DNA of 63,960 nt, the filler included, from Octopus bimaculoides (lineage: Eukaryota): assembly GCF_001194135.2 (NCBI RefSeq). It is 3 parts of 2 records of this genome, joined end to end, with 100 filler letters (N's around TTAATTAATTAA, not from the genome) between each part and the next. Parts side by side here need not be neighbours in the genome. Positions count along the whole stretch, not along the records: positions 1 to 20,965 come from NC_069000.1; positions 21,066 to 35,643 come from NC_068991.1; positions 35,744 to 63,960 come from NC_068991.1. One strand, given 5' to 3'. The position numbers and the translations under genes were made by a program. Below, piece by piece: positions 19,784 through 50,595 of the stretch (positions are counted from its first letter, which is position 1; each line of letters starts with the position of its first letter). Below the pieces are notes generated by a model. It made no database searches and was not told the DNA's origin. It saw only the letters and a program-made list of their open reading frames with translations.

Positions 19784-19828
19784 CCATTACTTCACATTTT
19801 CATACCAACGAGGTATTCATCAGATGGC
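19784..19828 (-). ncRNA. Type-I hammerhead ribozyme motif (one stem III mismatch)
   Basis: Minus strand: ccat CTGATGA atacc-tcgtt-ggtat GAAA a-tgtgaa-g TA atgg. Confidence 0.6.
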
Positions 19829-20965
19829 ATGACAACAACAAAAATAAGTACTTGAAAACATTCTTAGTTGTTATGCCATTTGTTGAATGCCAATTCCAGC
19901 ACTAAACTCAAGGTAATGCAAAAGTCAATTCTAACAATAAAATAATATATATATAACAAAATAAGTCTTTGTTAACAATGTATCTTGTTAATAAAGACTT
20001 ATGCATATATTTCTTGATATTTCTACTTTTGTATTCTAAATATAAATATATATATATATGTATGTAAAGCCTCATTTCTGAATGATATTATACACCAGAG
20101 TTTCAGCTTGGAATTGAAACCAGGTCAGTTGATTAGGGTTTGCTGGAAGTGCACCACAGACCTCTCTACAATGCATTCAACACTACAGCACACCATACCT
20201 AACATCTAAACAAAAATGAGACATCAATGGATTTATTTGTGATTTACTGTTTGTGCACACACTAGTATGAATTTTCTGCTTGTTTTTTTTATGACTGTAT
20301 GAACAAAAAAGATCAATAACAGAGATAATTTTTGAAATTTCCAGTGTACAGTGAAAGCATCTCAAAAACAAAAATCAAACATAAATATACTGTCAGCAGA
20401 ATCATTTGTATCTCTTTCCCGCCCAAAAGATGATAACTTATCTTAAAGAAGTGTACCAAAAGAAAAGAGATGAAATGAAATAAACTGAACGACAATAAAT
20501 AAATAAATAAATTAGTCAATAAATAAGAGAATAAGTTAGGATGTATTGATGCTAAAGATTGTCCAACTGTGCATTAAAGGTTAAAAGTCATAGAAAGAAA
20601 GATTCAAAAAAGGAACAAAATGATTCCAAGAGACACATCGAACGATTGAAACTAGAGAAAATATTAAGTATATATATATATATATATAGACATACACACA
20701 CACACACATATAGTGTGTGTATGTATATGTATATATATATCTGTGTGTATATATATATATATATTTATATATGTATATTTATATATATGTATATTTATAT
20801 AAATATATATTTATATAAATATATATTTATATACATATATTTATATAAATATATATTTATATACATATATTTATATAAATATATATTTATATAAATATAT
20901 ATTTATATATATATGTATATTTATATAAATATATATTTATATACATATATTTATATAAATATATA

Positions 20966-21065
20966 NNNNNNNNNNNNNNNNNNNNNNNNNNNNNNNNNNN
21001 NNNNNNNNNTTAATTAATTAANNNNNNNNNNNNNNNNNNNNNNNNNNNNNNNNNNNNNNNNNNNN
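20966..21065. other. Assembly linker N44-TTAATTAATTAA-N44
   Basis: Exactly 100 nt; the 12-mer has stop codons in all six frames; identical structure at 35644-35743. Confidence 0.9.
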
Positions 21066-21067
21066 TA

Positions 21068-21098
<31 letters not shown>

Positions 21099-21776
21099 CA
21101 TTTATATAAATATGGATAAAATCGTTATTTAAAATACCGATCTTATCAGGTGGCCAGCATGGGAATAAAAACCATAAAGGTAATAATAATCATTCAAATT
21201 ATAATTAAGGGTATCTAAGATTAAATGTTCATACAGCACCAGGAGAATTGTGCTCTTAGATACCCTTGATTATAATATTATAGAGGTGTGTAAGGTATGA
21301 AGTAAAAATAATATATTAAATGATATGTTAAATAGTAACAACTTTAGTGGATTTATAAGTAAAATATTAAAATGTTCTACTAAAAATAAGAAAGAATAAA
21401 ATATTTAATTACTAAAAATGCCGGAAGAATAGAGGGGATAATGTTTAATTTGATGGTAGGCAGGTATAAGTAAAAACTGTAATCATAGTTTCAATATCAA
21501 TAGTTGGAGACAGGACTAAAATAGTTTAAATGGTAAAGCGAGTAAGTCAAATAATACAAAAGCTAGCAGTAATAATTTAGGAATAGACAAATCCATATTG
21601 TAATTAATAAATATAATGATGGAACAATAAAATAAAAGCATTATGAGGTAAATAGGTGCAAGATATACAACAAAGATAGCATGTGTACAAAATAAATATT
21701 GAGTTTATAATAATATATAGTTATTAACTTAATAAGCAATATGAATAAGAGCAATATGAATAAGAGAAGGTAAAAT

Positions 21777-21809
<33 letters not shown>

Positions 21810-21915
21810 NNNNNNNNNNNNNNNNNTAATAAATATAAAATAATGGGGGAATCATAAAGGGTTAACGAGTGTAAAGTGAAAGGGAAAGGGATTAATAACC
21901 TACTAAACAATTTTC

Positions 21916-22278
21916 GGACCCTTCTAATTTGGCGGGCGCCACTTGTTTTCTTAACGAAACACTTTCAAACTTGGGACACTGGTAGAATGTGTCATATAAA
22001 AGCTCTTTTACTGTTAGTGTTATTGAGAAAATTTTATCATTTTATAGAAGGTGTTGTTTAATTCCACTGCAGTTATTGTTTTCACCTCAATAGACGTCAG
22101 TGATTGGTTGAAATTACCGAAATACGACAACTTTTAACATGAAGTAACTTCGAATATAAATTTTTTTCTGTGTTCTATAAGACAAAATATACAAGTATAC
22201 GAAGTTTTAAAGTCTTTCGGTAGAAAACACTAAATAAAACATAAACTAAAAGTGGTGCCCGCCAAATCAGAAAGATCC
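21916..22278. mobile_element. Non-autonomous DNA transposon (MITE)
   Basis: TIRs ggacccttctaatttggcgggcgccactt / aagtggtgcccgccaaatcagaaagatcc, plus inverted subterminal similarity. Confidence 0.75.
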
Positions 22279-47495: not shown

Positions 47496-47689
47496 GGGCG
47501 GCGAGCTGGCGGAATCACTGGCGCGCCATTTCGTTCATTTTGCGTTGTGAGTTCAAATTCTGCCGAGGTCGACTTTGCCTTTCATCTTTTCCGTGCCGAT
47601 AAAATAAGTACCAGTCAAGAACTGGGGCCAATGCAATCGACTAGTCCCCTACCCGAAATTGTTGCCTTCTGCCTACAGTAGAAAGGAAT
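47496..47689 (+). mobile_element. Type C SINE
   Basis: ggcggcgagctggcggaatc...gagttcaaattctgccgaggtcgactttgcctttcatc...agtagaaaggaat. Confidence 0.85.
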
Positions 47690-47996
47690 ATATGGATTGG
47701 CGCCTTCAATCCCATGTAAGTCTATTTCCAGGACGGAGAGAAATGCTTGTATACATGTATATATAAATGTGAGTGCTGATATATATATATATATATATAT
47801 ATANNNNNNNNNNNNNNNNNNNNNNNNNNNNNNNNNNNNNNNNNNNNNNNNNNNNNNNNNNNNNNNNNNNNNNNNNNNNNNNNNNNNNNNNNNNNNNNNN
47901 NNNNNNNNNNNNNNNNNNNNNNNNNNNNNNNNNNNNNNNNNNNNNNNNNNNNNNNNNNNNNNNNNNNNATATATACATATATATATATATATACAG

Positions 47997-48155
47997 TGAG
48001 AATTTACAACAAAAAAACAACGAATACGTGTGTGCAAACAACAAACAGATGTATTAGTTTAACGCTCGGGAAGTGAGAAAGTCTTTTACGTTTCGAACCT
48101 ACGCTCTTCGACAGAAAGGAACACAGAAATAAACAAGGAGAGAAAATAGAAAATA
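47997..48155 (-). repeat. Second copy of the Penelope terminal-repeat-like element (variant hammerhead 48082-48118)
   Basis: gatgtattagtttaacgctcggga...acgtttcgaacctacgctcttcgacagaaag. Confidence 0.65.
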
Positions 48156-49228
48156 GAAAAAGGTATAGTGGCTAGCGATCTATCATGGCGAATATATATA
48201 TATATATTACGGTACGAATGGTTTTGTTATACGGTGCTGGGTCTTACAAACTTGTAAATAATAATAATGGTATTTATATAAGCCTAAGGCTGTACATGGG
48301 CGCGCACACACACACACACACACTTACACATATATGAACGGACATACGCGTGCACATACACATGAATGCGCGCGCACACATGCAGGCACACACACACATG
48401 CGTGTTCATTTACATGTACATATAAATATATATATGTATGTATGTATATATATGTATACATACATACATATATACATATACATATACACACACACACATA
48501 TATATAGATATATATAGATATATAGATATATATATATACACATATATATAATACAAATAATATATGAATATATGCGTATATACGTACATGTATGTACATA
48601 CCTACATCTACATGTATATATAGATGTGTATCTGGGTACAGGACGTAGCAAAATAACGTGGACAAAATGNNNNNNNNNNNNNNNNNNNNNNNNNNNNNNN
48701 NNNNNNNNNNNNNNNNNNNNNNNNNNNNNNNNNNNNNNNNNNNNNNNNNNNNNNNNNNNNNNNNNNNNNNNNNNNNNNNNNNNNNNNNNNNNNNNNNNNN
48801 NNNNNNNNNNNNNNNNNNNNNNNNNNNNNNNNNNNNNNNNNNNNNNNNNNNNNNNNNNNNNNNNNNNNNNNNNNNNNNNNNNNNNNNNNNNNNNNNNNNN
48901 NNNNNNNNNNNNNNNNNNNNNNNNNNNNNNNNNNNNNNNNNNNNNNNNNNNNNNNNNNNNNNNNNNNNNNNNNNNNNNNNNNNNNNNNNNNNNNNNNNNN
49001 NNNNNNNNNNNNNNNNNNNNNNNNNNNNNNNNNNNNNNNNNNNNNNNNNNNNNNNNNNNNNNNNNNNNNNNNNNNNNNNNNNNNNNNNNNNNNNNNNNNN
49101 NNNNNNNNNNNNNNNNNNNNNNNNNNNNNNNNNNNNNNNNNNNNNNNNNNNNNNNNNNNNNNNNNNNNNNNNNNNNNNNNNNNNNNNNNNNNNNNNNNNN
49201 NNNNNNNNNNNNNNNNNNNNNNNNNNNN

Positions 49229-49266
<38 letters not shown>

Positions 49267-49724
49267 CACATGCCGTGAGTAATTATTCAAGGTAGGCTGT
49301 TGGTGACGTGTATGTATAAACGAAACACAGGCGCGCGACTGAGCTGCAGGCAGATTTACTTCTGCCTTTATAGCGCGTAAAGAAAACGTTGTTGCAGGAA
49401 TGTACGCACCACGTGTACTACAGCAGTATTATGGGTAGTTTTAAAACTGAGATTCGCAGGGACGAATTATGCCTACCTAATCTACAAAAAAATTATATAT
49501 TTTGCATTTTATGCATAATAATCAGAGTAATCTTCATAGTTTTATTGAATTAGGTGCATATTTTGCCATAAAAGGAAAATGTTACTATCGATTTATTTCA
49601 TTCAGGGTAGGCACTGCCTACCTTGTCTACCCAGGCGGCACGTCACTGATATCTATCTATCTATCTATCTATAAAATTGATAAAAATTTTATCAGTGGCC
49701 AGCATATGAAAAAAAGACAAACCT

Positions 49725-50200
49725 AAAGGCGTCGAAAAAGATTTTTTTAGCCTATATGCTGAAAATAGACGCTAAATCGTCGAACCACGTTAAATATCAT
49801 CAATATCATAATTACGCACGTGTCGAAACGAGGAAACACGCTAACAGGAATTCATAAATTTTAGTTATATCTTGATCGGATCACTTTCTGGATTAACCTA
49901 AAAAAGTTTTTCCTTCCTCTGCTGATTAAGGAAAAACCTGTTTTTCCTTAATCAGCAGATGAAGGAAAAATCTTTTTAGGTTAATCCAGAAATTGGTATG
50001 ATCAATGAAGGAAACATCTTTTTAAGCTAATTCAGAAATTGGTCCGATCCAGAGATAACTAAAATTTATGAATTCCTGTTAGCATGCATTCTCGTTTCGA
50101 CACATGTGTAATAATAATAATACTGAAGATATTTAACGTGGTTCAACAATCTAGCGTCTATTTTCAGCATATAGGCAAAGAAAATTTTTTCGATGCCCTT
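49725..50200. repeat. ~475-bp fold-back palindrome
   Basis: Arms meet at gaaaaac-ctg-tttttc (about 49930-49945); the right arm carries an extra ~46-bp duplication. Confidence 0.9.
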
Positions 50201-50490
50201 ATTTATAATTATAATTATATTTCCTCGTTGACAGGCCGCTGGTATTTATGGAGTGTTAAACACTTTCGGTATGCAAATTAGGGATTCTTTCATAGAGTAA
50301 CTACTGCATTTGTTGCATATATTTCTCATTTATTTGGTTTCTGCTTATTTCTTTCCTTTACCCCTCCTTTTTCTAAAGGCTTCCTCTGACGTCATATCCT
50401 CTAACGTTTTAAAAAACTTGATCGCGTTCCTTTCATCATTATACATATCCATTATATTCTGTTAAAATGTCTTATTGACGAGTTTGTTTT

Positions 50491-50595
50491 ATTTCTTTAT
50501 TTCCCTGAAGAGAAGATTACATTGTTTTACACCATTTTATTCCTTTGGAATAATACCAATGTTGTCTTCGAAACATGTGTCGGAAGAAAAAGAAT
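50491..50595 (+). ncRNA. Type-I hammerhead ribozyme with fully canonical core and long stem II
   Basis: ttcc CTGAAGA gaagattacattg...caatgttgtcttc GAAAC atgt GTC ggaa; predicted GUC cleavage after 50581. Confidence 0.8.

What the first reader, a model, noticed from the sequence alone, without database searches (positions are those of the whole stretch)
19784..50595. Six dispersed minimal type-I hammerhead motifs from about five unrelated repeat contexts
Seen: six CUGANGA...GAAA...NUH folds (exact or single-substitution cores) with pairable stems I-III in about 31 kb. Five have a self-complementary stem III (ACGU twice, ACAUGU twice, AUGCAUGCAU). Established: Penelope-like elements and retrozymes carry minimal type-I hammerheads that cleave as dimers through such palindromes. 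Inference: this genome holds several hammerhead-bearing repeat families, some with no linked ORF, which could be non-autonomous retrozyme-like or circular-RNA elements mobilised by the Penelope elements whose GIY-YIG remnants also occur here. I cannot tell whether they have been catalogued.
Basis: partly seen in the sequence, partly recalled or inferred. Interest (0 to 1): 0.75.

Follow-up and report, generated by a model that had tools for sequence, protein, structure and literature searches.

The report
Penelope retroelement hammerheads, one altered core
Five of the six ribozyme-shaped motifs sit in repeat families of what is likely an octopus genome: three are tail ends of truncated Penelope-type jumping genes, one is likely an old protein-free parasite of them and one is unassigned, all known kinds, but one very abundant family has a normally fixed core adenine replaced by uracil, which is predicted to weaken self-cutting.

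Summary
All six motifs are present and exceed shuffles (palindromic class 5 versus mean 0.12). The '31 kb' spans three unlinked stretches; five motifs lie within 12 kb of one. M1 is single-copy with a broken helix III. The other five belong to four repeat families. M3 and M5 are subfamilies of one Neptune-type Penelope-like element (PLE), and M6 is a Hydra-like PLE: longer copies run upstream into endonuclease and reverse-transcriptase frames, so these 'ORF-less' copies are 5'-truncated ends. Only M2 behaves like a non-autonomous retrozyme (330-nt head-to-tail units, no ORF in 52 loci), old and decayed. M4 is unassigned. All of this is a known kind (Cervera and de la Pena 2014, 2020; Craig 2021; Li 2026). 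The one unusual point is the Neptune family's fixed A6U core: 2,856 exact copies against 53 with A6, while position 7 varies freely. Published data predict low activity; cleavage is untested. I found no A6U report in print (Lunse 2017 not readable). The scan noted both the community and A6U before, in other octopus-like and shark-like DNA.

The parts
19784..19827 (-). M1: hammerhead-shaped motif, exact core, helix III broken, single copy; possibly a very old PLE end, possibly chance
   Evidence: 1 of 1 candidate in G000; no PLE frame motif in 8 kb; same stem II layout and the same TATTCACA-(TA)n terminus (about 19691-19698) as a Neptune-like family with 38 pattern hits, M1 among them
38570..38778 (+). 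M2 element: 5'-truncated piece of a 330-nt retrozyme-like unit; hammerhead 38592-38639, exact core, 10-nt palindromic helix III, predicted cut after 38633
   Evidence: 1,101 first-look candidates; head-to-tail period 330 nt; no ORF motif or shared upstream DNA in 52 loci; stem I covariation; extent and median identity 76%
39510..39653 (-). M3 element: young 3' stump of a Neptune-type PLE in (TA)n; hammerhead 39601-39637 with A6U core (U6 at 39629), extra A, ACGU helix III, predicted cut after 39606
   Evidence: 1,535 candidates; U6 in 30 of 30 loci; median identity 97%
44806..44940 (+). M4 element: old low-copy repeat; hammerhead 44834-44876; this copy has U4G while the family core is canonical; parent unassigned
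   Evidence: 15 of 15 candidates scored; alignment shows U4 in 13 of the 14 other loci; no shared upstream DNA
47996..48193 (-). M5 element: older 3' stump of the same Neptune-type PLE lineage as M3; hammerhead 48083-48118 with A6U core, predicted cut after 48087
   Evidence: 3,075 candidates; U6 in 25 of 25 loci; longer copies reach the endonuclease frame; 3' end abuts (TA)n in 22 of 25
50318..50625 (+). M6 element: 3' stump of a Hydra-like PLE; hammerhead 50500-50585, exact core, long stem II, wobble-palindromic helix III, predicted cut after 50581
   Evidence: 2,152 candidates; 6 of 25 loci extend at least 1.4 kb into RT and GIY-YIG frames; inverted 5' copies in L345 and L346
27637..27908 (-). 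Broken Hydra-like GIY-YIG endonuclease remnant, in a different genomic stretch from the six motifs
   Evidence: tblastn with the M6-family endonuclease, E 7e-12
22656..22931 (-). Second broken Hydra-like GIY-YIG remnant, also in stretch 2
   Evidence: tblastn E 1e-10

Best explanation
Three of the motifs (M3, M5, M6) are the hammerhead-bearing 3' ends of Penelope-like retrotransposons whose longer copies carry reverse-transcriptase and GIY-YIG frames, likely left as stumps when reverse transcription primed at (TA)n stopped early, and M2 is a piece of a protein-free 330-nt unit that was likely copied by the same enzymes from a tandem or circular RNA. Shown: motifs, copy families, fixed 3' and ragged 5' ends, (TA)n targets, upstream ORFs, tandem M2 units, fixed U6. 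Inferred from the literature: two motifs pair through the palindromic helix III and cut as a dimer, releasing unit RNA from tandem read-through transcripts, so lone dispersed copies such as these six are likely inert. Predicted: the A6U Neptune hammerhead cuts slowly at best, and U6 favours an inactive hairpin in the monomer. M4 is an old member of one of the two classes; M1 is a decayed relic or chance.
For: Copy families for M2-M6. M5 relatives reach an endonuclease frame with a CX4CxxC linker and CCHH pattern in at least 6 of 30 loci picked by their upstream UTR, gap-free to the motif in L197 and L216; Atlas features match GIY-YIG clusters at 0.96; blastp to 27 of 31 frames from PF01541 loci; RT pieces with DKG in L212/L349. 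M6 relatives: 6 of 25 run into YRDD RT and a GIY-YIG frame. M2: period 330 nt, sense hammerhead pairs in L222, L230, L231, L233 and L250, inverted 5' pieces in 11 of 52 loci, no ORF motif; stem I pairs switch between U-A and G-C (pair 3: 20 U-A, 4 G-C of 37). Helix III self-duplexes -13.4 (M2), -6.0 (M6), -4.6 (M4), -1.7 (M3, M5) kcal/mol. Reads in three RNA runs cross the M3 cut site with flat depth and no pile of ends there, as expected if dispersed monomers stay uncut. Literature: min-HHRs are mostly single motifs from truncated PLEs, inactive as monomers, weakly active as dimers (PMC4209133).
Against: No intact full-length PLE and no true tandem pLTR pair with two hammerheads was found for the Neptune family: the apparent pairs (L002/L003, L340, L341) are duplicates across assembly gaps. 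Pfam recognised none of the M5- or M6-family frames (0 relevant families for 6 frames). The CxCX5C linker described for Hydra was not found in 6 M6-family loci. The M2 covariation shuffle ignores relatedness, and 4 of 6 stem I pairs show no excess. Over-unit-length M2 copies are 27 of 52, but 28 of the 52 came from a query spanning the unit junction; in the first query set it is 4 of 24 plus L075. RNA shows only patchy host-transcript copies of M2. No helper enzyme for M2 was identified. Cleavage was not measured.
Confidence: 0.85

Rival explanations
1. All the families are non-autonomous retrozymes that spread through circular RNAs.
For: Window copies have no adjacent ORF; M2 has tandem and over-unit-length copies; 9 reads in three runs go back 124 nt on M3.
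Against: M3/M5 and M6 relatives run continuously into PLE ORFs; their 5' ends are ragged rather than unit-length; the Neptune 'tandems' are gap duplicates.
Confidence: 0.07
2. The A6U motif of the Neptune family no longer cuts; its fold is kept as a signal that the element's reverse transcriptase binds or primes on.
For: U6 in 2,856 versus A6 in 53 exact matches, in every sub-branch, with A6 scattered (14 changes, 6 forced by strong branches). Mutations in the CUGA turn give low activity and are not rescued except the C3-G8 swap (PMC9901934 passages). Core positions 4-6 are paired with probability 0.71 with U6 versus 0.45 with A6 in 38 copies.
Against: The rest of the motif varies as an active hammerhead would: position 7 takes all four bases (G44 U32 C13 A11 in the first 100 rows) and the cut-site base is U, A or C, though that is only a few independent changes. 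A natural A6C hammerhead keeps low activity and prefers Mn2+ (PMC7151607, PMC3088659).
Confidence: 0.3
3. The motifs are chance matches to a short degenerate pattern.
For: The loose descriptor gives 1.5 hits per shuffled window and 7.2 per shuffled 328 kb; M1 is single-copy with a broken helix III.
Against: Palindromic class 5 versus 0.115 and 5 versus 0.57 in unselected DNA; five motifs are family consensus features.
Confidence: 0.03

Closest known systems
Minimal type I hammerheads (min-HHR) in the pLTRs of metazoan Penelope-like elements (Cervera and de la Pena 2014, PMC4209133; parts 1-2 of 4 read, one of two supplements searched)
   Same: Type I topology, short helix I, palindromic helix III, extra base between A9 and 10.1 (M3/M5), thousands of single dispersed motifs from truncated elements, several families per genome.
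   Different: The core variant reported in the parts I read is U3-A8; a fixed A6U core is not mentioned there, and octopus has no hit in the searched supplement.
Neptune-clade PLEs (as defined in Craig et al. 2021, PMC8557442; passages)
   Same: RT with DKG, C-terminal GIY-YIG with CX2-5CxxC linker and CCHH, (TA)n targets, 5' truncation (M3/M5 family).
   Different: Fixed A6U hammerhead core; long CA/CT-rich 3' UTR; no full-length copy or true pLTR pair seen; no tree against named families.
Hydra-clade PLEs, including Hydra-1_Obim (PMC8557442, section 11 and supplement passages)
   Same: M6 family: similar RT and endonuclease motifs by eye, no CCHH, CxxC and CxH beside the catalytic E, (TA)n targets, 3' hammerhead.
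   Different: The listed Hydra-1_Obim hammerhead differs from M6; CxCX5C linker not seen; so another family.
Metazoan non-LTR retrozymes (Cervera and de la Pena 2020, PMC7229834, passages; Li et al. 2026, 10.64898/2026.07.22.740005, part 1 of 5 and passages)
   Same: M2: about 300-nt ORF-less units with one type I hammerhead each, monomers to short tandems, co-occurring with PLEs.
   Different: Old (76% identity), 10-nt palindromic helix III, inverted 5' pieces like PLE insertions; no circle or abundant RNA shown.
Natural A6C hammerhead of phage Bcep176 (PMC3088659 section 8; PMC7151607 part 1 of 4)
   Same: Substitution at core position 6 in a natural hammerhead.
   Different: C rather than U; a single phage sequence, versus a fixed state in thousands of retroelement copies.

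Membership tests
Hammerhead ribozyme, type I | Core CUGANGA / GAAA / UH | tested here: met
   Exact in M1, M2, M6; canonical in the M4 family though not this copy
Hammerhead ribozyme, type I | A at core position 6 (M3/M5 family) | tested here: not met
   U6 2,856 versus A6 53 exact matches; 20 of 20 parsed copies among 24 picked by upstream sequence have U6
Hammerhead ribozyme, type I | Helices I and II pairable, with covariation | tested here: met
   Pairable in all six; U-A/G-C exchange at 2 of 6 stem I pairs in 37 M2 motifs, relatedness not controlled; not tested for the other families
Hammerhead ribozyme, type I | Site-specific self-cleavage | not testable with these tools
   Unstranded cDNA reads show no end pile at the M3 site; uninformative for dimers
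PLE min-HHR | Self-complementary helix III allowing a dimer | tested here: met
   M2-M5 perfect, M6 with two G-U pairs; not met for M1
Neptune-clade PLE (M3/M5) | C-terminal GIY-YIG with CCHH and CX2-5CxxC linker | tested here: met
   L220, L194, L196 frames; Pfam gave no hit
Neptune-clade PLE (M3/M5) | RT with DKG motif upstream of the endonuclease | tested here: met
   L212/L349, across an assembly gap from the 3' end; RT piece adjoining the endonuclease in L196
Neptune-clade PLE (M3/M5) | (TA)n target, fixed 3' end, 5' truncation | tested here: met
   22 of 25
Neptune-clade PLE (M3/M5) | Partial tandem forming pLTRs with two hammerheads | tested here: inconclusive
   Apparent pairs are gap duplicates
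Neptune-clade PLE (M3/M5) | Phylogenetic placement of RT among named clades | not tested
   No reference PLE set among the tools used
Hydra-clade PLE (M6) | C-terminal endonuclease without CCHH, with CxxC and CxH beside E/N | tested here: met
   L112, L099, L107 frames against PMC8557442 section 11
Hydra-clade PLE (M6) | CxCX5C linker | tested here: not met
   Only microsatellite-derived matches in 6 loci
Hydra-clade PLE (M6) | RWK and DKT motifs in the N-terminal RT | tested here: inconclusive
   Region truncated or in an assembly gap
Non-LTR retrozyme (M2) | Short ORF-less unit with a type I hammerhead in at least two consecutive units | tested here: met
   330-nt period; pairs in L222, L230, L231, L250, and two periods apart in L233; no ORF motif in 52 loci
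Non-LTR retrozyme (M2) | Accumulates as circular RNA | tested here: inconclusive
   Only patchy coverage from a few host transcripts in cDNA libraries of organism B; such libraries may miss circles

The most novel reading that the evidence does not exclude
A Neptune-type retrotransposon lineage reached tens of thousands of copies through many subfamilies with a hammerhead that lost core A6 and cannot cut by itself; the fold survives as a switchable hairpin or docking signal for the element's own protein. That would show that Penelope hammerheads are kept for something other than, or gated beyond, plain self-cleavage.
Probability: 0.25. Interest if true: 0.7.

Novelty: new variant of a known kind. 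Interest (0 to 1): 0.36.

Why it matters
The community of hammerhead repeats is ordinary for an animal genome rich in Penelope-like elements. The A6U family matters more: the in vivo role of PLE hammerheads is described as unknown (PMC7761336 and PMC8557442 passages), and a successful lineage with a predicted crippling change, plus 53 natural A6 copies, gives a ready test of whether cutting is needed. It also means that descriptor searches that demand CUGANGA miss one of the largest hammerhead families in this genome (roughly 6,000-60,000 copies, extrapolated from 4 copies in 328 kb of unselected DNA).

Tried and rejected
Rfam scan: no hammerhead family among the 150 listed matches, only microsatellite-driven miRNA hits. 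My first two descriptors missed motifs with the extra base or a long stem II. The repeat finder was swamped by microsatellites and N runs. Pfam did not recognise the decayed M5/M6 frames and PDB gave 0 hits. 'A6 copies are the ancestral subfamily': rejected, they are scattered over the tree of 62 rows, only mildly clustered (18 of 500 shuffles as low) and somewhat enriched in the older branch. 'Tandem Neptune ends': gap duplicates. 'L135 links M5 to an ORF': rejected, it is an M5-type insert upstream of a different PLE. 'M4 is the inverted end of the PLE in L086': inconclusive, no matching 3' end downstream. My notes call the M1-like family Hydra-type; searches show that its endonuclease is Neptune-like. 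Sequencing-run search: no RNA holder listed on record; the three RNA runs laid were added by species label. Lunse, Weinberg and Breaker 2017 was not held (title seen only in a reference list) and may list core variants; one supplement of PMC4209133 was not searchable; bioRxiv supplements are closed. Searches for A6U in print: searches found no natural A6U hammerhead.
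Full report
Setting. The window is a pack of three stretches of a 2.34-Gb genome G000, AT-rich and full of microsatellites. That it is likely an octopus is my inference from its repeat content and from the scan's notes on the same genome; no call names it.

Observation. Observed 8 versus 1.53 in 200 shuffles; palindromic class 5 versus 0.115. The descriptor was tuned after seeing the motifs. In 40 unselected 10-kb pieces (327,828 non-N bases) the palindromic class gave 5 versus 0.57 in 30 shuffles, so such motifs are common genome-wide (about 15 per Mb). 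Stretch 3, with 4 in 25,587 non-N bases, is about ten times richer, but the window was picked for this. M1 is on a different contig from the other five.

M3 and M5. They are subfamilies of one repeat (1,535 and 3,075 first-look candidates), with a fixed 3' end at (TA)n (22 of 25) and ragged 5' ends. A search with the upstream part of a longer copy gave 30 loci; at least 6 run through a CA/CT-rich UTR into an endonuclease frame with a CX4CxxC linker and CCHH pattern, gap-free to the motif in L197 and L216. The frame matches GIY-YIG clusters in the Atlas at 0.96 and 27 of 31 frames from PF01541 loci by blastp, though Pfam itself gave nothing. RT pieces with DKG occur in L212/L349 and an RT piece adjoins the endonuclease in L196. 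These are Neptune features as given in PMC8557442. The window copies are therefore stumps of an autonomous element.

The A6U core. U stands at position 6 in 30 of 30 M3 loci, 25 of 25 M5 loci, 20 of 20 parsed copies among 24 chosen by upstream sequence, 7 of 8 parsed among 14 incidental copies, and all 4 copies in unselected DNA. Exact patterns count 2,856 with U6 and 53 with A6; C6 and G6 were not counted. Position 7 varies (G44, U32, C13, A11 in the first 100 rows). On a tree of 20 A6 and 42 U6 copies with those positions masked, A6 needs 14 changes (6 forced), so most A6 copies look like later back-mutations. In three RNA runs of organism B (probably a related species: the cut-site base is C in 60-65% of reads versus 2% in DNA run X15) 2,629-3,475 reads per run lay on M3, none of the listed differences of 5% or more falls on position 6, and depth is flat across the predicted cut. 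The libraries are unstranded cDNA and the copies are passengers in host transcripts, so this says only that dispersed monomers are largely uncut. Published work predicts low activity: single and double mutants of the CUGA turn are low except the C3-G8 swap (PMC9901934 passages); natural A6C is slow in Mg2+ and better in Mn2+. Folding of 38 copies shows core positions 4-6 paired with probability 0.71 with U6 versus 0.45 with A6, an inactive hairpin in the monomer. Searches found no natural A6U in print; Lunse 2017 could not be read. The scan's unchecked notes report A6U in another octopus-like genome and in shark-like or other vertebrate genomes; I did not test those.

M6. 2,152 candidates; 6 of 25 loci extend 1.4 kb or more into frames with YRDD and a GIY-YIG without CCHH, up to about 2.1 kb, with inverted 5' copies in 2 of 6 extended loci. 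The motifs resemble the Hydra alignment passages in the Craig supplement by eye, but the CxCX5C linker was not seen and the listed Hydra-1_Obim hammerhead differs. Two related endonuclease remnants lie in stretch 2.

M2. 1,101 candidates. L075 holds two hammerheads 330 nt apart. In 52 loci the 3' ends cluster about 177-207 nt after C3, 5' ends vary and run back into the previous unit, 27 exceed 340 nt (4 of 24 in the first query set; the second query spanned the junction), 11 have inverted pieces, and none has a PLE ORF motif or shared upstream DNA apart from two short matches. Of 37 motifs parsed, 10 keep an exact core and palindrome; stem I alternates between U-A and G-C at two pairs. This fits a non-LTR retrozyme as defined in PMC7229834 and Li 2026, old and probably extinct: RNA covers only patches from a few host transcripts.

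M4 and M1. M4 has 15 diverged relatives with a canonical core; the window copy has U4G; parent unknown. M1 is single-copy, cannot form helix III and has no PLE frame within 8 kb, but it shares its stem II layout, with a paired change, and its terminus before (TA)n with a Neptune-like family. An old relic is plausible; chance is not excluded.

Mechanism. Shown: families, ends, targets, ORF linkage, tandem units, fixed U6. Inferred from PMC4209133: two motifs pair through helix III and cut weakly as a dimer to free unit RNA from tandem transcripts, which the PLE RT and endonuclease insert by target-primed reverse transcription; early stops leave the stumps. Untested: any cleavage, any circle, the helper of M2.

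Verdict. Real, and mostly a known arrangement that the scan has met many times. The fixed A6U core is a variant worth one experiment. Interest 0.36.

Noticed in passing
window 31300-33200 (+): Broken Helitron: Helitron_like_N (31704-32015, E 2.5e-16) and Pif1 2B domain (32606-33190, E 1.9e-18).
   Followed up: partly
window 49660-50200: Palindromic MITE-like element with a near-perfect inner hairpin at 49888-49991, just upstream of the M6 element.
   Followed up: no
window 14453-15375: Diverged 29-31-nt minisatellite arrays.
   Followed up: no
window 29700-29890: Degenerate CCCTAA/CCTAAC repeat inside the stretch, telomere-like.
   Followed up: no
L147 (G000:C30:3948535-3951684): Exon of a likely SLX1-type GIY-YIG nuclease (label recalled) with an M3/M5-family insert in the following intron, antisense.
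   Followed up: no
L272-L301, L141, L148: Another Neptune-like PLE family with a canonical hammerhead and a 10-nt palindromic helix III; 38 exact pattern hits including M1; L274/L275 is a pair 318 nt apart across a gap.
   Followed up: partly
L153, L162, L173, L180, L181, L186, L134, L139, L345: Several further hammerhead families with canonical or near-canonical cores in unselected or flanking DNA.
   Followed up: no
RNA runs X21-X23 on window 39618: 208-410 reads per run of an internally deleted M3-type variant lacking the first half of the core, probably one well-expressed locus of organism B.
   Followed up: no
L002/L003, L340, L341: Identical repeat ends on both sides of assembly gaps mimic tandem pLTRs; a trap for tandem counts in this assembly.
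   Followed up: yes
window 23462-23776, 40286-40681, 52174-52587: Frames that look like LINE-type reverse transcriptase fragments by eye; no Pfam hit.
   Followed up: partly
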